Part shown: piece by piece, positions 3,169 to 46,664 of the stretch
Position numbering within the stretch: the stretch's first letter is position 1
How the letters are laid out: the number at the start of each line of letters is the position of its first letter
Source: an uncultured Clostridia bacterium
GTDB taxonomy: Bacteria > Bacillota > Clostridia > TANB77 > CAG-508
Length of the DNA: 63,450 bases
Direction: 5' to 3'
Assembly: GCA_934183045.1 (NCBI GenBank)
Contig: CAKPRW010000001.1
Location: 1 to 63,450, forward strand
The notes under the pieces: generated by a model
The model's input: the letters and a program-made list of their open reading frames with translations, nothing else
Told to the model about the DNA's origin: nothing
Database searches by the model: none
Made by a program: the position numbers and the translations under genes

Positions 3169-3381
3169 AATATTACACCTCCAAAATATTGTTTCCAATA
3201 CTATTTTTTTTAAACTATCTTGCATAAAAAATAAGCAGATTTTAAATTATTTTTTATCTCTATTTAATCAAATTTATTTTTTCTACAATTTTCATCTTTA
3301 TTCCTCATTTTTTGCAAATTTATTTGATTTTTTTAGTGTTTATATATATAATCATAATAATAAATTTTAAAGGTGATATCT

Positions 3382-29141: not shown

Positions 29142-31589
29142 TTATTCAATATCTGGTTTTAAAGTCTCTATACTTACTACTCTACCACCATCATTAGTTC
29201 TCATTAAAGTAACCCCTTGTGTTGATCTTCCTAATACACTAATATCTTTTACATTAATTCTAATTATTGTTCCTGTATCTGTTACTAGCATAACATCTTC
29301 ATCTTCATGTGCTACTCTTACTCCTACAATTTTTCCAGTTTTTGGTGTTATTTTATATGTAATTACACCTTTTCCACCTCTTATTTGTACTCTGTATTCA
29401 TCTAATTCTGTTCTTTTTCCAAATCCGTTTTCTGTAATTGCAAGTAATGTAGACTTATCTCCAGCTATTACTGATTCCATTCCTATTACTTCATCGTCAT
29501 CATCAAGTCTTATTCCTATAACACCTTGAGAAACTCTACCAATAGGTCTTACATCTTTTTCATCAAATGTAATACACATACCGTTTTTTGTTACTAATAC
29601 TATATTATCTTGTCCATCTGTTAATCTAACTTCTATTAATTCATCATTTTCCTTTAAAGTAATACCTTGTAAACCTGTTTTTCTTGTTGAGTTATATTCT
29701 GTTAAAGCTGTCTTTTTAATTAGTCCATTCTTTGTAGACATTAACAAGTATTTTCCCTCGGCAAAGTTTTGAATTGGAATAACTGCTGACACTTTTTCTC
29801 CTGGGTCTAAACTTAATAAATTAACGATTGCTGTTCCCTTAGCTGTTCTACCAGCTTCTGGAATCTCATAACCTCTTAATTTATATAATTTTCCTTTATT
29901 AGTAAAGAATAATATAGTATCATGAGTTGAAGCAATAAAGATTTGTTTAACAAAATCATCTTCTCTAGTAGTCATTCCTGTAATACCTTTTCCGCCTCTT
30001 TTTTGACTTCTATATGTATCAATTGGTAATCTCTTAATATATCCGAAATGTGTTAAAGTAATAACAGTTTGCTCTTCTTTTACTAAATCTTCAATATCAA
30101 TTTCTCCTTCAGCAGCTACAATTTTTGTCTTTCTTTCGTCACCAAATTTATCTCTTATTTCAATTAATTCTTCCTTAATTATGTCAAACACTAATCTTTC
30201 ACTACTTAAAATTTCTCTTAAGTGTGCTATTAACGCCATTAATTCATTATACTCATTTTCTATCTTTTCTCTTTGTAATCCTGATAATGTTTTTAATCTC
30301 ATATCAAGAATTGCTTGTGCTTGTATTTCAGATAAACCAAATCTTTCCATTAATCTTTCCCTAGCATCGTCATATGAAGAACGAATTATGTTAATAATTT
30401 CATCTATGTTGTCTAATGCTATCTTTAATCCTTCTAAAATATGAGCTCTAGCTAATGCTTTATCTAAATCAAATTGTGTTCTTCTTAAAATTACATCTTT
30501 TCTATGGTCTATATAACAATCTAAACATTGTCTTAAAGTTAATATTTTAGGTTCTCCATTTACTAATGCAAGCATTATAATACCAAAAGTTGTTTGCATT
30601 TGAGTATGCTTAAATAATTGATTTAAAACTACTTGTGCATTTGCATCTCTTTTTAATTCTATAACAACTCTTACTCTATCTTTTCTATCAGACTCATCTC
30701 TACATTCAGATATTCCTTCTACTTTCTTTTCTTTTGAAAGATCTGAAATAGTTTTAATTAAATTTGCTTTATTTACTTGGTATGGTAATGAAGAAACTAT
30801 TATTCTTTGTTTATTTCCACTCATTTCTTCTATTTCAGTTTCTGCTCTTAATGTAATTTTTCCTCTACCTGTTGTATAAGCTTGTTTTATTCCTTCCATT
30901 CCAAGAATGATACCTTCAGTTGGAAAGTCTGGACCTTTTATAACTGACATTAAATCTTCATCTGTAACTTCATCTTCATCAATGATTTTTATAATACCAT
31001 TAATAACTTCTGTTAAATTATGAGGTGGTATATTTGTTGCCATACCAACTGCTATTCCTGATGAACCATTAATTAAAAGTGCTGGTATTCTTGCTGGTAA
31101 TACCGTAGGTTCTTGTAATCTGTCGTCATAGTTTGGCATAAAGTTAACTGTATTTTTTTCTATATCTGTAAGCATGTATTCAGATATTTTTGACATTCTT
31201 GCTTCAGTATACCTCATTGCTGCGGCACCGTCTCCATCTACAGATCCGAAATTCCCATGTCCATCAATTAACATATATCTCATAGAGAAATCTTGTGCAA
31301 GTCTTACCATAGCATCATATACAGAACTATCTCCATGTGGATGATATCTTCCTAAAACAGATCCAACTGTATTTGCACATTTTCTATATGGTTTATCTGA
31401 TGTAATTCCATCTTCATGCATTGAATATAAAATTCTTCTATGTACAGGTTTTAAACCATCTCTTACATCTGGAAGTGCACGAGATACAATAACACTCATA
31501 GCATAATCTATATATGCTGTTCTCATCTCTTTTTCAATATCTCTTTCAATGATTTTTCCGTCGTTTCTTTCTTGTGGTCTATCTTCCAT
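29142..31589 (-). CDS. gyrA: DNA gyrase subunit A
   Basis: AMRYTE active-site Tyr region, the QRDR-like GRYHPHGDSSVYDAMV, and C-terminal beta-pinwheel repeats. Confidence 0.97.
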   Translation of the reverse strand: MEDRPQERNDGKIIERDIEKEMRTAYIDYAMSVIVSRALPDVRDGLKPVHRRILYSMHEDGITSDKPYRKCANTVGSVLGRYHPHGDSSVYDAMVRLAQDFSMRYMLIDGHGNFGSVDGDGAAAMRYTEARMSKISEYMLTDIEKNTVNFMPNYDDRLQEPTVLPARIPALLINGSSGIAVGMATNIPPHNLTEVINGIIKIIDEDEVTDEDLMSVIKGPDFPTEGIILGMEGIKQAYTTGRGKITLRAETEIEEMSGNKQRIIVSSLPYQVNKANLIKTISDLSKEKKVEGISECRDESDRKDRVRVVIELKRDANAQVVLNQLFKHTQMQTTFGIIMLALVNGEPKILTLRQCLDCYIDHRKDVILRRTQFDLDKALARAHILEGLKIALDNIDEIINIIRSSYDDARERLMERFGLSEIQAQAILDMRLKTLSGLQREKIENEYNELMALIAHLREILSSERLVFDIIKEELIEIRDKFGDERKTKIVAAEGEIDIEDLVKEEQTVITLTHFGYIKRLPIDTYRSQKRGGKGITGMTTREDDFVKQIFIASTHDTILFFTNKGKLYKLRGYEIPEAGRTAKGTAIVNLLSLDPGEKVSAVIPIQNFAEGKYLLMSTKNGLIKKTALTEYNSTRKTGLQGITLKENDELIEVRLTDGQDNIVLVTKNGMCITFDEKDVRPIGRVSQGVIGIRLDDDDEVIGMESVIAGDKSTLLAITENGFGKRTELDEYRVQIRGGKGVITYKITPKTGKIVGVRVAHEDEDVMLVTDTGTIIRINVKDISVLGRSTQGVTLMRTNDGGRVVSIETLKPDIE

Positions 31590-31709: not shown

Positions 31710-32432
31710 TTATTTTAATTTTTCTACCAATTCTAATTGTTCTTTACTTAAATTAAAATTTTGACCATTATTTTTTATTAAACTATGTAGCATTTCTATT
31801 GTTTTTGCTTCATTTATTGTTTTTTCTATTGGCGCAATATTGTTTAATTGTTTTTTTATTTTATTATATTCTTTTTCCATTCCTTCAAAATTTTTATTAT
31901 TAAAATACTCTTTCCAATTATCTATGTATTTATTTGTATATTCTATCGCTTCATATTGTTTATTAAATGTATTTTCTATATTACTTTCTATGCTATTTAA
32001 AATAGTATTCTTTCCCTGTTTTATTGTTTTAGCAATTGTATTATTAATTAATCCTTCTTTCCTTACCTTATCAACTACAGTATCCAATAAAGAAGACATT
32101 CCATCTATTAGTCCTCCTGTTTTTACAACCTCTTGCATTTGTGATACGGACTCAAAATTTCCAGTAAGAATGCCAACTGCGCTTTTTCCTAAATCAATTG
32201 TATCATCAATCGTCTTTGTAATCCCCTCCTTCAAACCATAATTTAATAAATTATCTTTTAAATTAATAACTTGATTATCTAAAAAATCTGGTAATACAGC
32301 TCTTATTCCCATATCTATTGCTGCATTAATTGTTTTTCCAAGAGTTGTTTCTAAAAATTGTTTTTGTGTTTCATTATTAATAGTATTATTTATTTCTATA
32401 TTATTGTCTTTTTCTAAATTATTTATTTCCAT
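31710..32432 (-). CDS. Hypothetical protein (helical, no recognisable motif)
   Basis: 240-aa ORF. ATG lies 6 nt after AGAAGGA. Amino-acid composition is normal, unlike the neighbouring array. Confidence 0.6.
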   Translation of the reverse strand: MEINNLEKDNNIEINNTINNETQKQFLETTLGKTINAAIDMGIRAVLPDFLDNQVINLKDNLLNYGLKEGITKTIDDTIDLGKSAVGILTGNFESVSQMQEVVKTGGLIDGMSSLLDTVVDKVRKEGLINNTIAKTIKQGKNTILNSIESNIENTFNKQYEAIEYTNKYIDNWKEYFNNKNFEGMEKEYNKIKKQLNNIAPIEKTINEAKTIEMLHSLIKNNGQNFNLSKEQLELVEKLK

Positions 32433-32449
32433 GTTATGTCCTTCTTTCT

Positions 32450-35400
32450 ATTTTTATTATTTTTTTATAATTAATTTTTCTTTTTTATAAAAATATAATT
32501 TATAAATTAATTATATTTTATAATCTAATAATTCTATATTTTTTATAATAATAATTTAATATATTTTTTATAAAAAAATATAAAATAATTAATTTATTAC
32601 AAAAATATCTTGCAAAATTCATAAAAATTTTAATAAAAAATTTTTCCATTTTTATTTATATACAATCTGATTTTCGACAATATGTAAACTTTTTTGATAT
32701 ATTTTTAAAGTCCTTTTATACTTCTCTGCTATCTTTCAAATACGTTTAATGCCTAATAGATTTTGATTTTAAAAATTAAAATTTGTTCTGTTTTTTCTAT
32801 ATTATTTCTAAAAAATTGATTGAAAATAAAAGTTTTGAGATAAATCTATATTTGATCAAAAGTTTATGATTTTCATAATTATATTTTTATATTAAAAATT
32901 ATAAATTTTTTATTTTATTATTTAACAATATTTTATTACTTTTACTTTTAATAATTACTAAATTTTCCTTTCTTCTATAATTTATTTTTATATAATTTTT
33001 TTAATTTAGTTTTTTATTAAATTATAATTTTATGAATTATTTTTTCATGCTCCTTAAATTTAACTTTTTGTTAATGCTATTTTTATATTAAATTATATTT
33101 TTTAATATTTTATTTATAAATTATTTAATTTTACAATTTTTATTTTATAATAATATAATTAATCAAGTAATTATATTTAAAATTTTAATATTTTAGATTT
33201 TTTGTTAATAATAATTTAAATATTTTTTTATTAAAATTAAAAATTATTTGTTAATTTCTAAAATATATTTTTAAAATTCATCATATTTTTTAATAAATTT
33301 TTCTTTTATCTTTAATACAAAACAACATGTGTCAGACAATATGTAAACCATTTTGACATATTTTTAATATCATCTTATATTTTTGCATTACTTCCTAAAT
33401 ATATTTAATGCCTAACAAATTTTAGTTTTAAGATTTTATATCTTATCTATTTTTTACATATTATTTTCAAAAAATTATTTAAAATGAAACTTTTTGAACA
33501 AATCAATACTGAATTAAAAATATTGGAATTTTTTTCAATTTATTTTCTTATTTTTAATTTTAAATTTTTCTCTTTTGTTTTTTTAATTATTTTTTTATAT
33601 TTTAAATTTATATTAAATATTTTTTATGTTTTAAAATTATTATTTTTATTATAGAATATTTTATATGTTTTTTTATCCTATTTTTATTATTTTATTTTAT
33701 AATTTTTATATAATTTATTATTTTTATTTTTTTACTTATAAATATTTTTATATTAATTATAATTTTATATTTCATTTATAAGTTATTTAATTTTACAACT
33801 TTATTTATGCTTTTTTATTTTTATAATATTAGAATAAATTTAGTATATTTTTTATTTATAGTAAAAAACATTATATCAATTTATAGAAAATATTTATAAA
33901 ATTCATAGAAATTATTATTAAAATATTTCTTGATTTTAGTCTCAATATATTCTTATTTTTGACAATATGTAAACTATTTAAATCTATTTAAAGTGCTTTT
34001 TAATATTTTTGTATAATTCTTCAAATACATTTAATGCCTAATAGTTTTGAATTTTTGAGTTTGTAATTTATAACAATTTTTCTATGTTTTTATAAAGATA
34101 TTGATTTATAGTAAAAATTTTAAGATAATGCTATACTATTAAAAAACTTTTTTGAAGTCTTTAATTTTCTTTTTTGATTTAATTTATAAGTTTTTTATTT
34201 TATTTTTTTATAATTATTGTTATTTTATATTTTAATAAAAAATATTTATTTTTTATTAGTAAATATTTTACATGTTTTTTATATTTTATATTTGTATTAT
34301 TTCTTTTTTTTAGTTATTATTGATTTATTATTTTTTAATTAACTTATTTTCTTATTATTTATTTTATATAATTTTTAAATTCGAATTTTTATTAATTAGT
34401 TTATTATATTAAATCATATTTTTAATATTTTATTTTCGACTTATTTATTTTTATAATTTAGATTTTTATAATATCAAATTTAATTTTTTAATCTTGTATT
34501 TTCATTAATAATAAATTTTATATTTTTTTACTAATTATAAAAAAATTGCTTATTAAAAATTTAAAATATATATTTAAAATTTTTAATACTTATATGCTTT
34601 TTTCTTTTTTATTCTTATTTCAATAGCATCCTTCTTTGGAAATATGTAAACCATTTTATATCTTTAAAAATTTCTTTTTATATTTTTTTCAATCTACCAA
34701 ACAGATTTAATGCCTAGTGAATATTAGTTTTTAAATTCTAAACTTTAGATACCTTTTCTTTATTTTTAAGATAATTTTGCTATATACTAAAAATTTTAAA
34801 TTAAATATATATTATATAAAAAATTTTTAAACTTTTATTTTAATTTTTATTTTCAAATTATTTTTTATTTATTTTTAATAATTTTTAATAATTTTTTATT
34901 CTTATTAAATCTTGAATAATTTTTTTATTTTATATTTTTTTGTGATAAATTTCTATTGCCAAATTTTTATTATTTAATTGTTTTTTTATGATTTTTTTAT
35001 TTTAATTTTTTATTAATTTATTTTTTTATATTAAATTATATTTTTAATATTTTATTTTCAAATTATTTATTTTTATTATTTATAATATTATAAATAATAA
35101 ACTAACAATTTTTTAAATATTGTATTTTTATTAATAATACTTTTAATATATTTTTTATTAATACAAAAAATCGTTTATCATTTTTTTATATTCTTCTAAA
35201 ATTTAAAGTAACTTTTAATAAAATTTTTTTTGATCCTTTAGTCAATATGATTTAATTATTAATAATATGTAAACCATTTTCACTTATTTTAAATATCTTT
35301 TTATACTTTTCCATAATTCTTCAAATAGATTTAACGCCTAATAGATTTCAATTTTTAAATTTAAAGTTTAGATTAATTTTTCTATGTTTTTATAAGAAAT

Positions 35401-36345
35401 CTAATATATAATAAAAATTTTGAAATAAATTTTTATAATTTTCTTTTTCAATCTTAATTTTAAATTTTTTATAATTATTATTTTATTTTTCTATTCTTAA
35501 TTAATTTTTTAAAAAAATTCAACATTATTATTTTTATAATTAAGTATTTGATATTTTTTGTATATGATTTATTTTTTATTAATATAAATTTTTTCAATTT
35601 TATTTTTTACTAATTACTTTTTTATATGATTTATTTTTTTTATCAATTAATATTTTAATATTATTTATAATTGCATATTTTATTTATAAATTATTTAATT
35701 TTATAATTCACTTTATAATTTCTATTTTTATAATATTAAAATAAATTTATTAATTATTTTTTATGTTTTTGAATTTTATATTTTATTAAAAATATTTTTA
35801 CTCTTTTTTTATTAATTATAGAAATTTTTATACTACTTTTTAAAATCTCCTTTCAAAATTTTTAATAAAACATTTATCTTTTTTATTTCACTATATCTTA
35901 ATTTTCTATAATATGTAAACTGTTTTTATACACTCTAAATGCTTTTTTATGTTTTTATATAATTTCTTGAATAGATTTAATGCCTAATAGATTTCAATTT
36001 TTAAATTCGAAGTTTAGATCAATTTTTCTATCTTTTTATAAAAAGTCTGATCTACAATAAAATTTTTGAAATAAATATATACTGAATAAAAAAATTTTTT
36101 TAACACCTTCAATTTTATTTTTTATTTAGTTTTTATGTTTTTTATTTTTATTTTTGTTTATTATTTCTATTTTATATTTATTATTTTTTTATTATTAAAT
36201 ATTTAATATATTTTTTATATTTAATAATATAAAGATTTCAAATAAAAAATTTTTTATCAATTTGATATTTAAAATTATTTTATAATTTTGGTGTTTTTAT
36301 ATTAAAATATTAATTAATTTTTATTTTAATAACAATTAATTATTT
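32450..36345 (-). repeat. Tandem array of six degenerate, ORF-less copies (period 623-679 bp) of the 3' two-thirds of gene 36346..37422
   Basis: AATATGTAAAC occurs at 32679, 33338, 33964, 34641, 35264 and 35910 (genic copy at 36589). TTTAAYGCCTA occurs at 32745, 33404, 34030, 34706, 35330 and 35976 (genic copy at 36655). No ORF of 60 aa or more exists in any frame. Minus-strand translation of unit 6 gives LLGIKSIQEII*KHKKAFRVYKNSLHII, against LLGIKDLNQFIIKYANSFSEQKNSLHIV in the gene. Confidence 0.85.
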
Positions 36346-37422
36346 TTATATTATATTATTCTTTATCCTTAATTTTTTTATTTTATTTTTCAAACCATTA
36401 TTTTTTAATAAATGAAATAATAATACTTTTATTTTGATAATTAATTTTATTTTATTAAAATTAATTATATTAGTTTTATGATTTTTTGAAATTTTATTTA
36501 TATTAATTGAATATTTTTTTAATGAACAGTCTAAAACATGTATATAAATCTTTGCACTTATTGAATATAAATTTACTTTGTTACCCACAATATGTAAACT
36601 GTTTTTTTGTTCTGAAAAGCTATTGGCGTATTTTATTATAAATTGATTAAGATCTTTAATGCCTAGTAAATTTTCATTTGTATATATAATAATATCTGTC
36701 GTTTGCATTATAATTTGTTTGAAAAAAGTTCTATTCTTACAATTTTTAATTCTAATAAATATAATATCAAATTTCTTTTTTTCTTTATCTAAAAAATTTT
36801 TAATTTCATTTTTGTTTTTTATTTTAAAATTATTATAATAATAATTTTTAATTTTTATATTTTGAGAATAATTTACATTAATATTTTTATTATTATTTAT
36901 ATTTATTATTAATATTTTTTTATTTATCAAATATTTAATAATTGTTTTTATAATTAAATCATTTTTATCAATTTCTTCTCCACATATTAATATTATTTTT
37001 TTATTTATATTTTTATTTAAATTATTATTTTTAATGTTTTCTTTATTTGATATTTTTTCATTTTTTAAAATATTAAATATTATACTATAATTAATGTTTT
37101 TTAATTGATATACTTTTTTCAACCCTATTTCTTTTAAATTGTCATATTGTTTTTTTTCATTATTTTTTAATATAATTATTATTTCTATTTTGTTATTAAT
37201 TTCTTTTATATGTTTCACTAATTTTTCTAATTTTATTTTTCCTGGTATTTTACTATTAATTATAATTGTATCTATGTTTTTATTTTTTTCTAATATTTCT
37301 ATAATTGCTTCCCTATATTGAATATCTTTACTTATTACCTCATATTCGTTTCTTTGTTTTAATAATTGATTAATCTGAGGATTATTTAGTGCTGTTACTA
37401 TCTTCTTCTTTTTTTCCTTCAA
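36346..37422 (-). CDS. Hypothetical K/N/I-rich protein, last gene of the island operon and parent of the tandem array
   Basis: TTG start lies 4 nt after GAAAGGAAG and overlaps the VirB4-like gene by 41 nt. The overall layout (N-terminal about 140 aa plus C-terminal about 215 aa) faintly recalls receiver-like plus ParA/CpaE-like proteins, but no Walker A is visible. Confidence 0.5.
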   Translation of the reverse strand: MKEKKKKIVTALNNPQINQLLKQRNEYEVISKDIQYREAIIEILEKNKNIDTIIINSKIPGKIKLEKLVKHIKEINNKIEIIIILKNNEKKQYDNLKEIGLKKVYQLKNINYSIIFNILKNEKISNKENIKNNNLNKNINKKIILICGEEIDKNDLIIKTIIKYLINKKILIININNNKNINVNYSQNIKIKNYYYNNFKIKNKNEIKNFLDKEKKKFDIIFIRIKNCKNRTFFKQIIMQTTDIIIYTNENLLGIKDLNQFIIKYANSFSEQKNSLHIVGNKVNLYSISAKIYIHVLDCSLKKYSININKISKNHKTNIINFNKIKLIIKIKVLLFHLLKNNGLKNKIKKLRIKNNII

Positions 37423-39211
37423 TAATCTTCCTTTCTAATTCAGAGCATTCTACCTTTGTTAATATATGATCTTCACTAACAAACATTAAGCACTCTCCTC
37501 TTTTTAAAGATTTAATTTCTATTTTCTCTTTTTCAGATAAATTAGAATATTCAGATAGAATTTTTATGTTCTCTTCTTCCAATGAGAAAAATGTTTTTAT
37601 GCTAGAATTATTTAATATACTTTTTCCATATGTTCCATTATCTAAGCTAAATATGTCAGAAATATCTTGAGTAATAGCTACCCCACTTCCACTGTATTTT
37701 CTTATAGTTTTAAAAATCTTATATATAAAACTAGCCACTTCTTTATTTGATGTTACTCCTATTAGTCTCCATATTTCATCTAAATATATTGCTTTTTTGT
37801 CCTTTCTATTTTCTTTTATTTTATCCCAAAAAATATCTGTAAAAAGATACATTCCATATTTTAAATTTTCTTCACCTAAATCATAAACATCAGCAATTAT
37901 TAAACTATTATCTAATTCTATGTTTGTATAATTGTTAAAAAATTTCATCGATCCCTTTACAAAAGGAATTAATTTAATTTGAAACCTTTTTGTTCTTTTA
38001 TCATTTCCAAGTATATTATATAAATCTTCTAGTATAGGCATATCTTTTGAATTTTTAAATATTTTCTTATTGTTTTTATTCTTTTCTTTATATAAAGTAT
38101 TATCATCAAATGTAATATTTTTTTCTTTATAAGTTTCTATTATTTTTTCCTCTATTAAAGCCTTTTCTTCTTCATCTAATTCTCCAAAAATCAAGTTGAA
38201 AAATCCTATTAATTTTCCTATTTTAGTAGCTAAATATCCACTCTCTCCATCTTCTATACTTTCTTTTCTAATATCTAAAATATTTATATATGTATTTGAA
38301 TTAGGTCCTATTTTTATTTGAGTTCCTTTTAATTCTTTACATAAATTACTATATTCTCTTTCTGGATCAATAACGTATTGCGTTATACCAAGTAACTTAT
38401 ACCTTAATATTAGTAGCTTCGTATAAAACGATTTTCCTGCTCCACTTGTACCAAAAATACACATATTCGCATTCTTATATTTTTGAGTATCATATCTGTC
38501 TATGAAAACTAAAGAATTATTATATATATTTGTTCCTATAAATATACCTTCCTGATCAAAAATCGTTGATGAAATGAAAGAATATGTTGAAATTAGTCCA
38601 CTTGTTAGTATATTTCTTCTAGCTGATCTTTTTATGAAATCTGGATTATTCATTAATGGTAAACATGATTTAAATAATTCTTCTTGTCTAAAATTTGCTC
38701 TAATTGTTTGCATTCCTTTACTTTGTGTTATTCCTTCAACCTTATTCAGAAAATACTCTAATTCCTTTATATCTTCTGAATATAAATTTATGTAAATATA
38801 TAAAAAATAAATATCTTCATTATTTATTTGAATTTCTTTTCTTATATATTTAGCATCATTATAAGTAAATGCAGCTATATCAATATCCTGTCTGTTTTGA
38901 TTTCCTTCTTTTAACTCCACACCTACATTTCCAATATGATAGGTTAAATCTTTAATTGTTTTATATGGATCTTGTTTTTCATAAAAAATTGATATATTCA
39001 TATTAATATTTGTATCTACTAATGTTTTTAACAATAAATCTGTTTGTTCTCTATAGTAATTCACTATAATTAATCCTGAATAATATAAATTATCAATTTC
39101 TAAATATTTTGGATTTTGAACATTTATATATGATGGACATATTTCATCTTTTAAGTTTAATACTCCATCTAGAAATTTATTTTCTTTCTTATTTAATTTA
39201 ATATTTTTTAT
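37382..39211 (-). CDS. VirB4-like T4SS ATPase (island paralogue)
   Basis: Walker A FGTSGAGKSF and Walker B AIYLDEIWRL. The frame is open up to stop 39245-39247. AAAGGAGGT is followed 6 nt later by ATA 39211 (ATT at 39202). The extension DEICPSYINVQNPKYLEIDNLYYSGLIIVNYYR aligns with ELIAPAGIDASHVDHLEIISNTKRYARSFFVSNLPR of ORF 60215. The track start GTG 39064 has no SD. Confidence 0.75.
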   Translation of the reverse strand: MKNIKLNKKENKFLDGVLNLKDEICPSYINVQNPKYLEIDNLYYSGLIIVNYYREQTDLLLKTLVDTNINMNISIFYEKQDPYKTIKDLTYHIGNVGVELKEGNQNRQDIDIAAFTYNDAKYIRKEIQINNEDIYFLYIYINLYSEDIKELEYFLNKVEGITQSKGMQTIRANFRQEELFKSCLPLMNNPDFIKRSARRNILTSGLISTYSFISSTIFDQEGIFIGTNIYNNSLVFIDRYDTQKYKNANMCIFGTSGAGKSFYTKLLILRYKLLGITQYVIDPEREYSNLCKELKGTQIKIGPNSNTYINILDIRKESIEDGESGYLATKIGKLIGFFNLIFGELDEEEKALIEEKIIETYKEKNITFDDNTLYKEKNKNNKKIFKNSKDMPILEDLYNILGNDKRTKRFQIKLIPFVKGSMKFFNNYTNIELDNSLIIADVYDLGEENLKYGMYLFTDIFWDKIKENRKDKKAIYLDEIWRLIGVTSNKEVASFIYKIFKTIRKYSGSGVAITQDISDIFSLDNGTYGKSILNNSSIKTFFSLEEENIKILSEYSNLSEKEKIEIKSLKRGECLMFVSEDHILTKVECSELERKIIEGKKEEDSNSTK

Positions 39212-39258: not shown

Positions 39259-39858
39259 TTATTTTCTTTCATATATAGTATTTTTTATAATATTATTTAA
39301 ATTTTTTCTTGTGTTAAAAAATGAATTAAATAAATTTTTTATTTCTTTTTTACTATTAATTTCCATGACAAAATTTCCACATCTAAATAATGATTCTTTT
39401 ATTTTAAAATATTTTTCTTTTAAATCATTCTTAATAATTTCTTCATAATTATTAAATTGATTTTTTTTATTTATTTGATTTGATATGATGATATAAAAAT
39501 TTTTAGAAGAAGATTTCTTACTTAGATTAATTTCATTTATATATTTTATATAATCTTGTGATATTTCTTGTAAATATCTATTTTGCTTTTTATTTATATT
39601 TTTTTCTATATTTGAAATATGTGGATTTAAATTTTCCTTATTACTTTGAATTAAAATTTGAATATTAAAATTACATGTTTTTAAAAAAGTTTTGTAAGAA
39701 TTTAAAATAGCTTCTTTTTCTAAATCAGACTTTAAATTATAATTAATAGGAATTATTTTTAATATTTTAATATATCTATTATCTTTTAATTTTATAATTC
39801 CACTATTATAAATTTTTTCTATTGGTAACCATTCTTGAGTCGTTTTTTTCTTAATAAT
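39259..39858 (-). CDS. T4SS-associated protein, paralogue of the soluble part of ORF 59042..60190 (missed by the ORF track)
   Basis: A 199-codon open frame bounded by TAA 39873-39871 and TAA 39261-39259, translated by hand. It has no ATG/GTG/TTG until codon 160. GGAGGTG is followed 5 nt later by ATT-ATT (39858/39855). IPINYNLKSDLEKEAILNSYKTFLKTCNFNIQILIQS and KNFYIIIS match GINYDLMSGLEKNSVEQGFLQFLNTLRYPIQLYIQT and KNYYVIISY. Confidence 0.65.
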   Translation of the reverse strand: MIKKKTTQEWLPIEKIYNSGIIKLKDNRYIKILKIIPINYNLKSDLEKEAILNSYKTFLKTCNFNIQILIQSNKENLNPHISNIEKNINKKQNRYLQEISQDYIKYINEINLSKKSSSKNFYIIISNQINKKNQFNNYEEIIKNDLKEKYFKIKESLFRCGNFVMEINSKKEIKNLFNSFFNTRKNLNNIIKNTIYERK

Positions 39859-40402: not shown

Positions 40403-40419
40403 TATTAGCTTTATAGATT

Positions 40420-40452
40420 AATGGCAGATAAATTATATATTTATCTGCCATT
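40420..40452. terminator. Hairpin just downstream of gyrB
   Basis: AATGGCAGATAA, a 9-nt loop, TTATCTGCCATT. The T-run is present only on the plus-strand side. Confidence 0.5.
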
Positions 40453-40459
40453 AAATTTT

Positions 40460-42388
40460 TTAAATATCTAGATTCTTTACATATTTTGCATTTTTTTGTA
40501 TAAATTCTCTTCTTGGTTCAACTTCATCCCCCATTAATAAAGTAAATATTTCATCTGCTTTTATAGCATCATCCATTGTAACTTTTATTAATATTCTCTT
40601 TTCTGGATCCATTGTTGTTTCCCATAATTGTTCTGGATTCATCTCTCCTAAACCTTTATATCTTTGTAATCCTAGTTGTTCTCTAGTTATTCCCTTTTCT
40701 TCTAATTCTTTATATGCTTTTTCCAAATCCTCATCTGTATAACAATAAAGATCTTCCATTCCTTTTTTAGATAGTTTATATAATGGTGGTTGCGCTAGAT
40801 ATACATTTCCATTTTCAATTAAAGGTCTCATATATCTAAAGAAGAAAGTTAACAATAAAGTTCTAATATGCGCACCATCAACATCGGCATCAGCCATTAT
40901 AATTACTTTTCCATATCTTATTTTTGTTATATCAAAATCAGGACCAATTCCAGCTCCTACAGCTAATATAACAGGATTTAATTTGTCATTTCCATAAATT
41001 TTATCAGCTCTTGCTTTTTCAACATTTAACATTTTTCCCCATAAAGGTAAAATTGCTTGGAATTTTCTGTCTCTTCCCTGTTTTGCACTTCCTCCTGCAG
41101 AATCTCCCTCAACTATATAAACTTCACATTCATCTGCATTTTTACTACTACAATCAGCTAATTTACCTGGTAATGTTGATGTTTCTAATGAGTTTTTCTT
41201 TCTTACTAATTCTCTTGCTTTTCTAGCAGCTTCTCTTGCACGAGATGCGCTAATACATTTCTCTAATATTGATTTTGCTACATTTGGATTTTCTTCTAAG
41301 AATGTTGATAAAGATTCATTTACCATACTTTGTACAACACCTGTTACTTCACTATTTCCTAATTTTGTTTTAGTTTGTCCTTCAAATTGAGGTTCCTTTA
41401 CCTTTACTGATACTACTGCTGTAATTCCTTCTCTTATGTCTTCCCCTTGTAAATTGTTATCTTTTTCTTTTAAGATATTATGACTTCTAGCATAATCATT
41501 AAATACTTTTGTTAATGATCTTTTAAATCCTTCTAAGTGTGTACCACCTTCTATTGTGTTTATGTTATTTACAAATGTATATATATTTTCAGAATAACTT
41601 GATGTATATTGTATAGCAATTTCTACTGGTACTTCTCCATTTTTTTCTATATAAATAGGAGTTTTATTCAATTTTTCTTTATTTTTATTTAAAAATTCTA
41701 CAAATGAAATTAAACCACCTTCAAAACAAAATTCAGCTTTTTTAGGAGTTTCTTCCCTTTTGTCTTCAATTGTTATTTTTAAACCTTTTGTTAAAAATGC
41801 TATTTCTCTAAATCTTTTTTCTAAAACTTCATATTCATAATCAAGACTTTCAAAAATTGTATCATCTGCTAAAAATCTAACTTTTGTTCCTGTTCCTTTT
41901 GCTTCCCCTATTACTTCTAGTTTTTGAGTAGTCTTTCCTTTTTCAAATTTCATTTGATATAGTTTTCCATCTCTTTTTATCATTACTTCAGTCCATGTAG
42001 ATAAAGCATTAACTACTGATGCACCAACTCCATGAAGACCTCCTGATACTTTATATCCACTATCTCCACCAAATTTTCCACCTGCATGTAATACTGTATA
42101 TACTGTTTCCGCAGTAGATATTTTTGTTTTAGGATGTATTTCTACTGGTATCCCTCTCCCATTATCTTCTACACTAATAATATTTCCAGGTTCTATTACT
42201 ACATTTATTTCTGTACAATATCCAGCTAATGCTTCATCAACACCATTATCGACAATTTCATATACACAATGATGTAATCCTCTTACAGAAGTACTTCCTA
42301 TATACATACCTGGTCTTTTTCTTACTGCTTCAAGACCTTCTAATACTTGTATTTGTTCTGCCCCATATTTATGATCATATTTTTCCAT
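40460..42388 (-). CDS. gyrB: DNA gyrase subunit B
   Basis: GHKL ATPase motifs ([22 protein letters not shown]), Toprim [20 protein letters not shown] and [12 protein letters not shown]. Confidence 0.97.
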
Positions 42389-43486: not shown

Positions 43487-43530
43487 ATTATTTCTCCATT
43501 TTGTGTATAAACCATTTTTGATATTTCTAT

Positions 43531-43754
43531 TTTTTTCTATTTTTTCCTATTTTTTTCTTTTTTTTTCTATTTTTTCCTATTTTTTTGATTTTCCACTTTA
43601 TTTTTTATTTATGAAATTATATTAATAAAAAATAAAATCGCCTTATTTTGGATTCTCACGCTTCGTTTTTTATTTAAATATTTCATTTTTTTAAAATCTT
43701 TTTTTTTCTAATTTATTCTATTTTATTCTTTTTTTTTCTAATTTATTCTATTTT
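43531..43754. repeat. Two pairs of T-rich direct repeats with 30-bp period in the dnaN-recF spacer
   Basis: TTTTTTCTATTTTTTCCTATTTTTTT occurs at 43531 and 43561. TTTTTTTCTAATTTATTCTATTTT occurs at 43701 and 43731. Confidence 0.7.
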
Positions 43755-45299: not shown

Positions 45300-46664
45300 T
45301 TATTGTTTCCCATTTATGATAATGTTTTTCACACTATCCACAATTAGCTTGGTATTATTTTTTTCTTTGGTTTCTTTTTCTATTTTTCTACAAGCATGCA
45401 TTACGGTTGAATGGTCTCTTCCCCCAAACTCAGTTCCTATTTGTGGATAAGACATATTTGCAATTATTCTACATAGATACATTGCAATTTGTCTTGGAAA
45501 AGCAACTTCATTAGATCTCTTATTTCCTGATAGATCATCTTTATTTATGCTAAAATATTTTGCAACAGTTTCTTTTATAAAGTCACAAGAGATAACTTTT
45601 TCATTTTCATATTTAAATTCATTTATAGTTTTTTCAGCTAATTCTATAGTAATTGGACTATGTGTTAGTGATGCGATTGCAACTACTTTATTAAAGACTC
45701 CTTCTAATTCTCTAATATTTGAATCGATTTTATTAGCTATATTTGAAAGGATAAAGTCATCAATAACTATATTTTCTTCTTGTGCTTTTTTTCTTAAAAT
45801 TGCTAAACGTGTTTCGTAATCTGGACATGAAATATCAGCAAGTAGTCCCCATTCAAATCTAGATTTTAATCTATCTTCTAGAAATGGTATATCCCTAGGT
45901 GGTTGATCACTTGAAATGATAATTTGTTTAGCATTATCATATAAAGTATTGAATGTATGGAAAAATTCTTCTTGTATTCTTTCTTTTCCAGCTATAAACT
46001 GTATATCATCTATTAATAAAACATCAATATTTCTATATTTGTTTCTAAATACTTCGTTTTTATTATCTTTAATTGCATTTATTAATTGATTAGTAAATTT
46101 TTCTGATGTTACATATAAAACATTTGCATTTCTATTGTCCTCAATTATTTTATTTCCAATAGCATTCATTAAGTGAGTTTTTCCTAAACCTACACCACCA
46201 TATAAAAATAAAGGATTATAAGATTTTGCGGGTTCCTTCCCTACTGCTAATGCAGCAGCATATGCAAATCTGTTATTATCACCCACAACAAAGGTTTCAA
46301 ATGTGTATTTAGAATTTAAAGTAGACATATTTGTTTTTATTTCTTTTGTAGAAGAATTTGAGATATTATTGTCTGAAATAATATCTTCTGTAATTGTTGT
46401 ATCATTTTCTTCTTTTGATAAATCTATTACAGAATAAGTCCAATCTTTATTTGTTATATATCTTAAAGTGTTGAGAATTAAACTTCTATACTTGTTTTCT
46501 ATAAAATCTTTATGGAATTCAGAAGTTGTTGTAAATACGATATTATTATCTTCTATACTTCTTATATCTAATGGCATAATCCATGTATCATAAGATATTT
46601 TAGTAACTTCAGGCTTTAATAATTCTCTTATTTTTTCGATTAATTCTTCTTTTTCTATTGCCAC
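45300..46664 (-). CDS. dnaA: Chromosomal replication initiator DnaA
   Basis: AAA+ Walker A GGVGLGKTHL, LLIDDIQF, and the domain IV HTH ...RDHSTVMHACRKIE. GTG start follows AAAGGATGA. Confidence 0.97.
   Translation of the reverse strand: MAIEKEELIEKIRELLKPEVTKISYDTWIMPLDIRSIEDNNIVFTTTSEFHKDFIENKYRSLILNTLRYITNKDWTYSVIDLSKEENDTTITEDIISDNNISNSSTKEIKTNMSTLNSKYTFETFVVGDNNRFAYAAALAVGKEPAKSYNPLFLYGGVGLGKTHLMNAIGNKIIEDNRNANVLYVTSEKFTNQLINAIKDNKNEVFRNKYRNIDVLLIDDIQFIAGKERIQEEFFHTFNTLYDNAKQIIISSDQPPRDIPFLEDRLKSRFEWGLLADISCPDYETRLAILRKKAQEENIVIDDFILSNIANKIDSNIRELEGVFNKVVAIASLTHSPITIELAEKTINEFKYENEKVISCDFIKETVAKYFSINKDDLSGNKRSNEVAFPRQIAMYLCRIIANMSYPQIGTEFGGRDHSTVMHACRKIEKETKEKNNTKLIVDSVKNIIINGKQ

What the first reader, a model, noticed from the sequence alone, without database searches (positions are those of the whole stretch)
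32450..36667. Six ORF-less tandem relics of one gene keep two invariant 11-mers at a fixed 71-nt spacing
No ORF of 60 aa or more exists in any frame between 32433 and 36345, and G/C bases are very sparse. The stretch is nevertheless six head-to-tail units. Their periods, measured motif to motif, are 659, 626, 677, 623, 646 and 679 bp.

Each unit aligns with the 3' two-thirds plus the short downstream spacer of gene 36346..37422. Minus-strand translations are recognisably homologous but carry stops. For example, unit 6 gives LLGIKSIQEII*KHKKAFRVYKNSLHII against LLGIKDLNQFIIKYANSFSEQKNSLHIV in the gene.

AATATGTAAAC is identical in all 7 copies. TTTAAYGCCTA is identical apart from one T/C position. 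The spacing between the two motifs is 71 nt in six copies and 70 nt in one. Mutation pressure towards AT should erase G/C-containing words first, so their survival in otherwise drifted units suggests selection at the DNA or RNA level. Candidate functions are protein-binding sites, recombination handles or small-RNA elements. The alternative is a very specific recent duplication history. I know of no described element with this layout.
Basis: seen in the sequence. Interest (0 to 1): 0.75.

Follow-up and report, generated by a model that had tools for sequence, protein, structure and literature searches.

The report
Conserved two-box DNA site in decaying gene copies
Six decayed partial copies of a ParA-like gene near the replication origin of an uncultured gut Clostridium all keep one two-part DNA site at a fixed spacing; about 24 of the related species sampled keep such non-coding copies too, so the copies persist as carriers of a binding site whose partner is unknown.

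Summary

The two 11-mers are the two boxes of one oriented element. On the gene strand it reads YTAGGCRT ... RGTTTACATAT. The offset is 66 nt (65 in one unit), not 71.

The founding copy lies inside a fast-evolving ParA/MinD-family gene, where the boxes encode LG and SLHI. That gene sits in a vertically inherited T4SS-like island between gyrB and gyrA, about 10-14 kb from oriC. The host clade is uncultured low-GC gut Clostridia.

Across 83 related loci there are about 75 non-coding copies, downstream of the gene and upstream of the VirB4-like ATPase. The boxes are near-invariant in them, while spacer and flanks diverge towards chance level. Spacing falls into two classes, 65-67 and 54-56, one helical turn apart. 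The box-A glycine codon is GGC, a codon otherwise used for 3.7% of glycines. No RNA structure, conserved small ORF or conserved -10 element was found.

Best reading: a selected bipartite protein-docking site on duplex DNA, multiplied by tandem duplication of the gene's 3' half, whose coding remainder decays. The specific role is inferred. A centromere- or tether-like role is my first choice and a regulatory role my second.

The parts
32433..36345 (-). Array of six decayed units (periods 623-679 bp), 10.3% GC, no ORF of 60 aa or more. The units are relics of the 3' half of the ParA-like gene plus its downstream spacer.
   Evidence: a young equivalent array in L046
32679..32755 (-). Box-pair module 1, the most distal. 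Box B is at 32679-32689 and box A at 32745-32755. In strains L003 and L004 box A carries a C>A change at 32751.
33338..33414 (-). Box-pair module 2 (offset 66)
33964..34040 (-). Box-pair module 3 (offset 66)
34641..34716 (-). Box-pair module 4 (offset 65, the one shorter spacer)
35264..35340 (-). Box-pair module 5 (offset 66). Box A reads TAGGCGTTAAA, the single substitution in the 132 box positions of the six relics.
35910..35986 (-). Box-pair module 6 (offset 66), next to the gene
36589..36665 (-). Founding box pair inside the ParA-like gene. Box A encodes L-G-I-K, with Gly as GGC. Box B encodes S-L-H-I.
36346..37422 (-). 358-aa ParA/MinD-family gene with a receiver-like N-terminus. It evolves very fast (35% identity to L011, against 82-91% for its neighbours). 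The Walker A motif is lost in this lineage.
37382..39064 (-). VirB4-like conjugal-transfer-type ATPase (C-terminal ATPase part), 82% identical to the L011 orthologue
39259..39858 (-). TraC-like / VirB4 N-domain gene of 199 codons with an ATT start, preceded by a promoter-like site and an RBS. Gene callers missed it.
31710..32432 (-). p240, a conserved all-helical 240-aa protein of unknown function. It always lies directly downstream of the ParA-like gene or its array.
29142..31589 (-). gyrA, one flank of the island
40460..42388 (-). gyrB, the other flank. dnaA is at 45300-46664 and the GC-skew minimum at about 47 kb marks oriC.
23936..26702 (+). Further T4SS-type genes: a VirD4-like coupling protein (23936-25456), a T4SS pilin-like gene (25484-25813, weak) and a VirB6/TrbL-like gene (25824-26702, weak)

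Best explanation
SHOWN. The two 11-mers are the boxes of one oriented, bipartite DNA element. On the gene-sense strand it reads YTAGGCRT, then 58-59 nt or 47-49 nt, then RGTTTACATAT. The founding copy lies in the 3' third of a ParA/MinD-family gene. That gene belongs to a vertically inherited T4SS-like island between gyrB and gyrA, 10-14 kb from oriC. Tandem segmental duplication of the gene's 3' half plus its downstream spacer made the extra copies. In some species further copies lie upstream of the VirB4-like gene. The hitch-hiking coding sequence decays to the local mutational equilibrium of about 10% GC. The boxes and their spacing are held by purifying selection.

INFERRED (about 0.8). 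The element acts as duplex DNA that docks a sequence-specific protein or protein pair on one face of the helix.

INFERRED, my committed guess (about 0.4; this is the confidence given for this entry). The modules act by number, as centromere- or tether-like loading sites. Through them an island-associated or origin-associated factor, working with the ParA-like/p240/T4SS module, holds or positions the origin-proximal chromosome. Extra copies are kept because each one adds binding capacity.
For: - In 83 loci (1.36 Mb), GTTTACATAT occurs 108 times on the gene strand and 5 times on the other. My own composition estimate gives about 8 per strand by chance. 102 of the 108 have TAGG[CGT] at a fixed distance upstream.
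- In non-coding copies the information content is confined to TTAGGCAT and AGTTTACATAT.
- Spacing is 66 in every gene copy. In non-coding copies it is 65-67 (54 copies) or 54-56 (20 copies), with nothing in between. Unit periods meanwhile range from 440 to 1335 bp.
- The short spacing class occurs in 7 species. Those copies mostly resemble their own species' gene, which argues for repeated origin.
- Sister-species comparison by position: mismatches are 7.8% in boxes, 20.0% in spacers and 18.4% in flanks, p about 2e-5.
- Window alone: 21 of 22 box columns are invariant against 19 of 55 spacer columns, p = 5e-7.
- The Gly codon in box A is GGC in 20 of 25 genes and GGG in 5 of 25. GGC makes up 3.7% of 3110 Gly codons in neighbouring genes.
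- In L082 nine non-coding copies have spacers at background identity (47-51%) to the gene, yet all keep the boxes at offset 66.
- In L029 the six non-coding copies keep canonical box A while the gene copy itself has diverged.
- No RNA structure was found, and there is no Rfam hit in the array.
- For the centromere-like guess: a ParA-family gene adjoins the arrays. The position is origin-proximal. Arrays flank the ATPase-ParA operon in several species. Copy number and unit length vary freely, as expected of sites that act independently. The window holds no canonical parS although ParA and ParB are present.
Against: - No binding protein is identified. The p240 model is low-confidence (pLDDT 56) and has no DNA-binding domain hit.
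- In the window lineage the ParA-like protein has lost its Walker A motif. If it is the partner, ATPase activity is not needed there.
- Many species of the subclade have only the genic copy, so extra copies are dispensable.
- Unit periods of 440-1335 bp are unlike plasmid centromere repeats.
- The boxes are not palindromic, unlike parS.
- At strain level the data are nearly clonal, and one of the few SNPs hits a box.
- Copies were partly ascertained through the boxes themselves. This bias is mitigated by the fully occupied periodic arrays and by the positional sister-species test.
Confidence: 0.4

Rival explanations
1. Regulatory module. Box B supplies a -35-type element (TTTACA). This is the hexamer recognised by sigma-A-type holoenzymes and, in Clostridia, by TcdR-family sigma factors. 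Box A would be an activator or repressor site that must sit on the same helical face. The genic copy would be an internal promoter or operator for p240, and upstream copies would serve the VirB4-ParA operon. Duplicated modules would persist as extra promoters or as titration sites.
For: - Box B contains TTTACA. TcdR-group sigma factors use -35 TTTACA with -10 GTTATA (PMC4031146).
- Spacing quantised by one helical turn is classic behaviour for activator-dependent promoters (established knowledge).
- Every species with the element has a copy upstream of p240, and some have one upstream of the ATPase.
- TAnnnT hexamers are enriched 16 and 19 nt downstream of TTTACA in about a third of non-coding copies.
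Against: - No conserved -10 element: information content downstream of box B is about zero.
- The T at position 13, needed if box B itself held a -10 element, is present in only 53% of non-coding copies. No GTTATA is seen.
- Promoter-like sites in the region are no more frequent than in shuffled sequence.
- Eleven invariant bases are more than a -35 hexamer needs.
- Distal copies, 0.6-4 kb from any gene, are as well conserved as proximal ones.
- The distance to the downstream start codon ranges from 31 to 1976 nt.
Confidence: 0.25
2. Recombination or transfer site. The boxes would be recognition sequences for a tyrosine recombinase (Xer-like) or for a T4SS relaxosome (oriT- or overdrive-like, with the ParA-like protein playing the part of VirC1). 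Recombination between direct copies would also drive array expansion and contraction.
For: - The reverse complement of box B, ATATGTAAACT, matches the XerD arm of B. subtilis dif, TTATGTAAACT, at 10 of 11 positions. The dif sequence was confirmed in PMC3025954.
- The island encodes VirB4-, VirD4-, VirB6- and pilin-like proteins and a ParA-like protein.
- The arrays are dynamic in copy number between species.
Against: - No second recombinase arm lies 6-8 bp from box B (sequence inspection and the alignment).
- The location is next to oriC, not at the terminus.
- No relaxase or recombinase gene is found in the 63-kb window.
- No inverted repeat or hairpin potential is seen.
- Copy number is identical in six assemblies of the window species, so the array is not recombinationally unstable.
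Confidence: 0.12
3. RNA-level element. The units would be transcribed, sense or antisense. The two boxes would be single-stranded recognition or seed sequences for an RNA-binding protein, or for pairing with the ParA-like mRNA. The relics would then act as decoys or trans-acting regulators.
For: - The boxes are identical between the gene and the relics, so antisense transcripts of the relics would pair with the mRNA at exactly these two 10-11-nt stretches.
- A second conserved AT-only block about 210-270 nt downstream of box B carries promoter-like hexamers on the opposite strand in some units.
Against: - No consensus structure on either strand in 44 non-coding copies.
- Single-unit folds are no better than shuffled sequence, with z = +0.66 and +0.86.
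- No Rfam family matches.
- Two spacing classes one helical turn apart have no obvious meaning for single-stranded RNA.
- In L029 the gene copy has diverged from the boxes while the non-coding copies keep them, so pairing with the mRNA is not what is conserved there.
- The putative antisense promoter is not conserved in spacing between units (sequence inspection).
Confidence: 0.08
4. Self-propagation (molecular drive). Units with intact boxes would be preferentially duplicated by a box-dependent mechanism, and units with damaged boxes would be lost. The boxes would then look conserved without any benefit to the host.
For: - Arrays arose or were remodelled repeatedly. Some are very young or homogenised: units in L046 are 85-89% identical to the gene over spacer and flank positions, and copies in L082 are 88-100% identical within each family.
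- Copies also occur in a second intergenic gap.
Against: - Old arrays (the window, L032, L044) have units whose spacers are 35-75% identical to one another, yet their boxes are intact. Birth-death turnover cannot protect boxes over that much divergence without per-copy selection.
- The arrays are fully occupied. No dead units were found in the window, L011, L046 or L063.
- The genic copy shows nucleotide-level constraint too.
Confidence: 0.07
5. Neutral relics. The motifs would be conserved only as a legacy of protein-level constraint (LG and SLHI are conserved residues), through recent origin, or through gene conversion from the gene.
For: - The boxes coincide with the two best-conserved residue clusters of the C-terminal half in orthologues.
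- AGT and TTA codons are expected under AT bias.
Against: - The relics carry in-frame stops between the boxes, some shared among units, which shows divergence after pseudogenisation.
- Spacers have diverged to 48% identity with the gene, and the short-class copies carry deletions of about 11 nt. Conversion from the gene has therefore not occurred.
- The rare GGC codon is fixed.
- Non-coding copies are conserved where the gene copy is not (L029).
- Sister-species substitution rates differ 2.5-fold.
Confidence: 0.03

Closest known systems
Chromosomal parS sites of ParABS systems (for example the B. subtilis parS sites clustered around oriC, one of them inside spo0J; from my own knowledge)
   Same: Several copies of a short DNA site under nucleotide-level selection are clustered within about 15 kb of oriC. 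One copy is embedded in the coding sequence of a partition-family gene. Copy number varies between species, and the sites appear to act independently of their mutual distance.
   Different: parS is a single 16-bp palindrome. This element is asymmetric and bipartite, with an offset of 66 or 55 nt and a fixed orientation. No parS-like sequence is present. The adjacent ATPase is a receiver-like/MinD-like protein in a T4SS context, not Soj. No ParB-type partner is known.
Plasmid centromeres with phased bipartite boxes or flanking repeat clusters (P1 parS box A/box B around an IHF bend; pB171 parC1/parC2; F sopC; from my own knowledge)
   Same: The repeats adjoin a ParA-family gene. Two different boxes have a constrained helical register. 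In some species arrays lie on both sides of the ATPase operon.
   Different: Unit periods are 440-1335 bp, not 6-43 bp. The repeats are decayed pieces of the ATPase gene itself. The locus is chromosomal and vertically inherited, and the ParA-like protein and p240 have no plasmid homologues.
Activator-dependent promoters and TcdR-family promoters of Clostridia (-35 TTTACA, -10 GTTATA; PMC4031146)
   Same: Box B contains TTTACA. The upstream box sits at distances that differ by one helical turn.
   Different: There is no conserved -10 element. The invariant stretch is 11 nt long. Copies far from any gene are conserved equally well.
dif / XerD-binding arm (B. subtilis dif ACTTCCTAGAATATATATTATGTAAACT; PMC3025954)
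   Same: The reverse complement of box B matches the XerD arm at 10 of 11 positions.
   Different: There is no partner arm at 6-8 bp. The location is origin-proximal, not terminal. The copies form tandem arrays, and the second box is 55 nt away.
Agrobacterium VirC1 (ParA-like)/VirC2 binding the overdrive sequence next to T-DNA borders (from my own knowledge)
   Same: A ParA-family protein encoded with T4SS genes acts together with a cis-acting DNA site made of direct repeats.
   Different: No relaxase, VirC2-like protein or border-type nick site was identified. The system here is chromosomal and apparently domesticated.
Minimal Gram-positive 'type IVC' secretion systems (VirB1/B4/B6/D4 only; PMC3464263; C. 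difficile preprint 10.1101/2021.07.12.452133)
   Same: The gene content of the surrounding island is similar: VirB4-, VirD4-, VirB6- and pilin-like proteins.
   Different: Those systems sit on mobile islands. This one is at a fixed place between gyrB and gyrA in at least 80 species, has a split VirB4, and carries a ParA-like gene with the box arrays.

Membership tests
ParABS parS centromere | 16-bp palindrome close to TGTTNCACGTGAAACA | tested here: not met
   No match with up to 2 mismatches in the window. The four matches at 3 mismatches are at chance level and lie outside the array. The boxes are not palindromic.
ParABS parS centromere | Sites clustered near oriC | tested here: met
   The array lies 10-14 kb from dnaA and the GC-skew minimum. 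All copies in related loci lie within the dnaN-gyrA interval.
ParABS parS centromere | Bound by ParB | not testable with these tools
   ParB is encoded at 54979-55818. There are no binding data.
Plasmid-type (type I) partition locus | Walker-type ParA ATPase gene adjacent to the repeats | tested here: inconclusive
   Orthologues carry CbiA and AAA_31 domains above cut-off and a GxxxxGK[ST] motif. The window's own copy has lost Walker A.
Plasmid-type (type I) partition locus | Centromere made of short iterated repeats (period of tens of bp) bound by a small adaptor protein | tested here: not met
   Periods are 440-1335 bp. p240 has no recognisable DNA-binding domain.
Sigma-70-type or TcdR-type promoter | -35 hexamer TTGACA or TTTACA | tested here: met
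   TTTACA lies inside box B in all copies.
Sigma-70-type or TcdR-type promoter | Conserved -10 element 16-18 nt downstream (TATAAT or GTTATA) | tested here: not met
   Information content downstream of box B is about zero. TAnnnT is only partly enriched. Promoter-like sites are not above shuffled sequence.
Xer/dif recombination site | Two 11-bp arms in inverted orientation separated by 6-8 bp | tested here: not met
   Only one arm-like sequence is present (10 of 11 to the XerD arm). Nothing is conserved at the partner position.
Conjugative oriT | Relaxase gene nearby, and an inverted repeat next to a nick site | tested here: not met
   No relaxase domain is found in the annotated ORFs of the window. 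No hairpin potential is seen. The rest of the genome could not be examined.
Structured non-coding RNA | Rfam match, or a conserved secondary structure with covariation | tested here: not met
   Only tRNAs match Rfam. RNAalifold returns an open chain on both strands. Fold z-scores are positive.
Type I toxin-antitoxin long direct repeats (LDR- or Sib-like) | A conserved small ORF in each repeat unit | tested here: not met
   The ORFs of 25 aa or more differ in position, strand and sequence between units.
Neutrally decaying pseudogene array | Disabled reading frames | tested here: met
   In-frame stops are present in every relic.
Neutrally decaying pseudogene array | Uniform decay along the unit | tested here: not met
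   Boxes against spacer or flanks. Spacing is quantised.

The most novel reading that the evidence does not exclude
A clade of reduced-genome gut Clostridia has domesticated a minimal T4SS with a ParA-like ATPase next to oriC. It has also evolved its own lineage-specific origin-proximal cis-element: a bipartite, helically phased docking site born inside the ParA-like gene and multiplied as pseudogene arrays. Through this site the machine grips, positions or hands over the chromosome. That would make it a new kind of chromosomal centromere, tether or transfer-initiation site. A basal lineage carries arrays with different partner words around the same GTTTAC core (L091, L058), which would indicate co-evolution between the site and its binding factor.
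Probability: 0.27. Interest if true: 0.85.

Novelty: new variant of a known kind. Interest (0 to 1): 0.7.

Why it matters
1. It shows cleanly how a cis-acting site embedded in a gene can be amplified by partial gene duplication. The coding part decays and only the site, with its helical register, survives. Many ORF-less, extremely AT-rich intergenic stretches in reduced genomes might be read the same way.

2. It points to an unstudied system. A T4SS-like/ParA-like island is fixed between gyrB and gyrA in at least 80 species of uncultured human and animal gut Clostridia. Nothing is known about the function of such a vertically inherited secretion-type machine at the replication origin.

It can be used to fish for the binding factor, even from uncultured organisms, using recombinant proteins or metagenomic lysates.

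Tried and rejected
- Alternative genetic code as the cause of the 'stops': rejected. Long ORFs read normally in table 11.
- Defence-system reading of the HerA-like ATPase: PADLOC gave only weak mad8 and DndH hits. NCBIfam identifies it as VirB4-like.
- Decaying ICE remnant: rejected. The island is syntenic and conserved in at least 80 species, with the ATPase 73-99% identical.
- Promoter scan: not above shuffled sequence.
- Type I TA or small-peptide reading: no conserved small ORF.
- RNA structure: none.
- Phased A-tracts in the spacer: marginal at best, z = 2.1 at a 10-bp period.
- p240 structure prediction: pLDDT 56, so it was not searched against fold libraries.
- Plasmid homologues of the ParA-like protein and p240: none. 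The nearest plasmid VirB4 context (Vescimonas) was uninformative.
- Viral-contig pattern scan: I set the gap to 44-58 and so missed the main class, which has a gap of 59. The 80 single hits look like chance, and the scan is uninformative.
- Global alignment of arrays between species with different copy numbers mis-registers the units and gave no signal. It was replaced by unit-wise positional matching.
- A permissive blastn self-comparison drowned in AT-rich noise.
- A whole-unit folding script timed out.
- Strain-level polymorphism: too few differences to test selection.

Full report
**1. Checking the observation**

AATATGTAAAC occurs seven times in the 63-kb window. All copies are on the + strand and in the array, and 0.18 are expected by chance. 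TTTAAYGCCTA occurs seven times in register with it, plus one unrelated copy at 1978.

The periods are correct at 659, 626, 677, 623, 646 and 679 bp. The longest ORF between 32433 and 36345 is 56 aa. GC is 10.3%, against about 25% for the window.

The quoted spacing is wrong. The offset is 66 nt start to start, a 55-nt gap, and 65 in the unit at 34641. It is not 71/70.

The array is real. Six independent metagenome assemblies of the same species carry seven motif pairs in 3907-3913 bp.

**2. What the units are**

On the minus strand the motifs read TAGGCATTAAA and GTTTACATATT. Inside gene 36346-37422 they encode L-G-I-K and S-L-H-I.

tblastn links each relic to aa 247-296 of the gene, with in-frame stops. 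A DNA profile of the relics matches only a 91-nt core of the gene. A protein profile of the C-terminal domain detects 360-440 nt of homology in two units, at weak E-values.

Related species settle the origin.
- In L046 four units are 80-95% identical to the gene, from about aa 180 to about 120 nt past the stop codon.
- In L011 and L063 the units are about 43-46% identical at the protein level over about 140 residues. They carry stops, some shared between units, so relics also duplicated from other relics.

The extent is the C-terminal half or less, not two-thirds.

**3. Context**

The window spans oriC. The gene order is rnpA/yidC/jag/mnmE/mnmG/rsmG/parA/parB on one side and dnaA-dnaN-recF-gyrB on the other. 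The GC-skew minimum is at about 47 kb.

Between gyrB and gyrA lies an island with these parts:
- a TraC-like VirB4 N-domain gene, which has an ATT start and was missed by callers;
- a VirB4-like ATPase;
- the 358-aa gene;
- the array;
- a conserved 240-aa protein, p240.

VirD4-, pilin- and VirB6-like genes lie just beyond gyrA.

The 358-aa protein belongs to the ParA/MinD superfamily and has a receiver-like N-terminus. Its homologues carry CbiA, AAA_31 and ParA domains.

The island is syntenic in at least 80 species of uncultured gut Clostridia, for example Clostridium sp. CAG:343. GyrA is 81-99% identical and the ATPase 73-99% identical to the reference (L011) orthologues across them. It is therefore vertically inherited and not a decaying mobile element.

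The ParA-like gene is the fast-evolving member. It is 35% identical between the window and L011, against 82% for the ATPase and 91% for GyrA. In the window lineage it has lost its Walker A motif.

**4. The key result**

A DNA profile of the genic core finds copies well beyond the window's array. They lie downstream of the ParA-like gene and between the TraC-like and ATPase genes. In a few species they also lie upstream of gyrB. In L082 that upstream copy is part of a 2.75-kb segmental duplication.

In 1.36 Mb of related loci, GTTTACATAT occurs 108 times on the gene strand and 5 times on the other. By my own composition estimate about 8 per strand would be expected by chance. 102 of the 108 have TAGG[CGT] at a fixed distance upstream.

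In the roughly 75 non-coding copies from 24 species:
- Information is confined to TTAGGCAT and AGTTTACATAT.
- The spacer and flanks diverge towards background.
- The offset from T of TAGGC to G of GTTTAC is 66 in every gene. In non-coding copies it is 65-67 (54 copies) or 54-56 (20 copies), with no intermediate values. The units themselves vary from 440 to 1335 bp.
- The short class occurs in seven species. Those copies mostly resemble their own species' gene, which suggests repeated origin.

Further evidence for constraint:
- Matching units by position between sister species gives mismatch rates of 7.8% in boxes, 20.0% in spacers and 18.4% in flanks, p about 2e-5.
- Within the window, relic spacers are 58-75% identical to each other and 48% identical to the gene. 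21 of 22 box columns are invariant against 19 of 55 spacer columns, p = 5e-7.
- Inside the coding copy, the box-A glycine is GGC in 20 of 25 species and GGG in 5 of 25. GGC supplies only 3.7% of 3110 glycine codons in neighbouring genes.
- In L082 nine non-coding copies retain the boxes and the 66-nt offset, although their spacers are at background identity to the gene.
- In L029 six non-coding copies keep canonical box A and a shared box-B variant (GTTAACATAT), while the gene copy itself has drifted.

These facts exclude protein-level legacy, recent origin and gene conversion from the gene as explanations.

**5. Distribution**

On an ATPase tree the element is confined to one subclade of about 40 species. 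Non-coding copy number there ranges from 0 to 9. The window's closest relative, L050, has neither the array nor the motif.

A basal lineage has arrays at the same place with different invariant words.
- L091: AGTAAACATAAAT, then GTTTACCAATATAA starting 83 nt downstream (start to start).
- L058: GTTTAC, then GTAAAC starting about 145-154 nt downstream (start to start).

The GTTTAC/GTAAAC hexamer is thus a shared core. The hexamer is not enriched in the window overall.

**6. What it is not**

- No Rfam family matches in the array.
- There is no consensus RNA structure on either strand, and single-unit folds are no better than shuffled sequence.
- There is no conserved small ORF.
- Promoter-like sites are not in excess. 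There is no conserved -10 element, although TTTACA lies in box B and TAnnnT is partly enriched 16 and 19 nt downstream.
- There is no parS-like palindrome.
- There is no second Xer arm, although box B matches the B. subtilis XerD arm at 10 of 11 positions.
- No relaxase is encoded in the window.

**7. Most likely mechanism**

Shown: an oriented bipartite element is under purifying selection for both sequence and spacing. Its founding copy is inside the ParA-like gene. It was multiplied by tandem duplication of that gene's 3' half, and the remainder of each copy decays.

Inferred (about 0.8): it acts as duplex DNA that docks a protein or protein pair on one helical face.

Committed guess (about 0.4): the modules are centromere- or tether-like loading sites for a factor working with the ParA-like/p240/T4SS module at the origin. 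They would act by number. This fits the ParA-gene adjacency, the origin-proximal clustering, the arrays flanking the operon, and the free variation in unit length and copy number.

Against this guess, no binding protein is known and p240 could not be modelled. The ParA-like protein of the window has lost its ATPase motif. Many species manage with the genic copy alone.

The main rival (0.25) is a regulatory module: an activator site plus a TTTACA -35 element. The lesser rivals are a recombination or transfer site, an RNA-level motif, self-propagation and neutrality.

**8. Novelty**

I found no description of this element, of the gyrB-gyrA T4SS/ParA island, or of binding-site arrays carried on decaying copies of the adjacent gene (literature searches).

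It behaves like known arrays of origin-proximal or par-associated binding sites. It fails the defining tests of parS, plasmid centromeres, promoters, dif and oriT. I therefore file it as a new variant of a known kind, a selected protein-binding site array. Whether it is a new type of chromosomal centromere or tether remains open.

Noticed in passing
window 39259-39858 (minus strand): The TraC-like / VirB4 N-domain gene is an intact 199-codon frame. It has a TTGACA-17-TAAAAT promoter-like site and a GGAGGTG ribosome-binding site, but an ATT start codon. ORF listing and the public gene calls therefore miss it and report only a 35-aa fragment.
   Followed up: yes
window 54163-55818, and the whole window: Canonical ParA (Soj) and ParB (Spo0J) genes are present. 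No parS-like palindrome with up to 2 mismatches exists anywhere in the 63 kb around oriC, and the hits at 3 mismatches are at chance level.
   Followed up: partly
window 59042-62170: A second VirB4/TraG-P-loop-type ATPase (651 aa, 60215-62170) lies on the other side of oriC. It is preceded by a 382-aa ORF with no Pfam hit. T4SS-type genes therefore flank the origin on both sides.
   Followed up: no
window 3373-7659: A single-module NRPS of 1428 aa has condensation, adenylation, carrier and terminal reductase domains. It is followed by a histidine kinase and an HD-domain response regulator. This is notable in such a low-GC, apparently reduced genome.
   Followed up: no
window 28064-29070: The DnaI/IstB-like helicase-loader gene downstream of the DnaB_2-domain gene is split into a 200-aa ORF and a 99-aa ORF. 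The 99-aa part carries the LLIIDDLG Walker-B-like motif. Related species (L011) show a similar split.
   Followed up: no
window 36346-37422 compared with L011:10001-11062: The ParA-like gene evolves far faster than its neighbours: 35% identity, against 71-91% for p240, the ATPase and GyrA. It has lost its Walker A motif in the window lineage, in its sister L050 and in several other lineages, yet keeps an open frame at about 11% GC.
   Followed up: partly
L091:12696-16774, L058:12684-14535, L029:12798-17411: Other lineages carry arrays at the same position with different conserved words.
- L091 has four units with AGTAAACATAAAT, GTTTACCAATATAA starting 83 nt downstream of it, and GTAAAC at +153.
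- L058 has GTTTAC followed by GTAAAC about 145-154 nt downstream (start to start).
- L029 has six units with the box-B variant GTTAACATAT, while its gene copy has diverged.
   Followed up: partly
L082:1-2750 compared with L082:5461-8179: A 2.75-kb segment (the gyrB 3' end, the TraC-like gene and two box-pair units) is present twice at 96.9% identity in this MAG contig. This is either a real segmental duplication or an assembly artefact.
   Followed up: no
window 43524-43754 (dnaN-recF gap): Tandem repeats of a 10-bp unit (TTTCTATTTT, also readable at a 30-bp period) fill an 18.7% GC intergenic gap. The gap lies in the region upstream of gyrB where L032, L044 and L082 carry box-pair copies.
   Followed up: no
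window units, about 210-270 nt downstream of box B on the gene strand (for example 33095-33160 and 35655-35735): A second block is as well conserved among the six units as the box region, at 0.62-0.79 pairwise identity. It consists only of A and T (...TTATAAAATTAAATAATTTATAAATAAAATAT...). On the opposite strand it carries promoter-like hexamers in some units. Its significance across species was not tested.
   Followed up: partly
window 40418-40454: This is the only terminator-like hairpin in the 9-kb region scanned: a 16-pair stem followed by a T-run. It lies just downstream of the gyrB stop codon but on the + strand, opposite to the island genes, where it follows no ORF.
   Followed up: no
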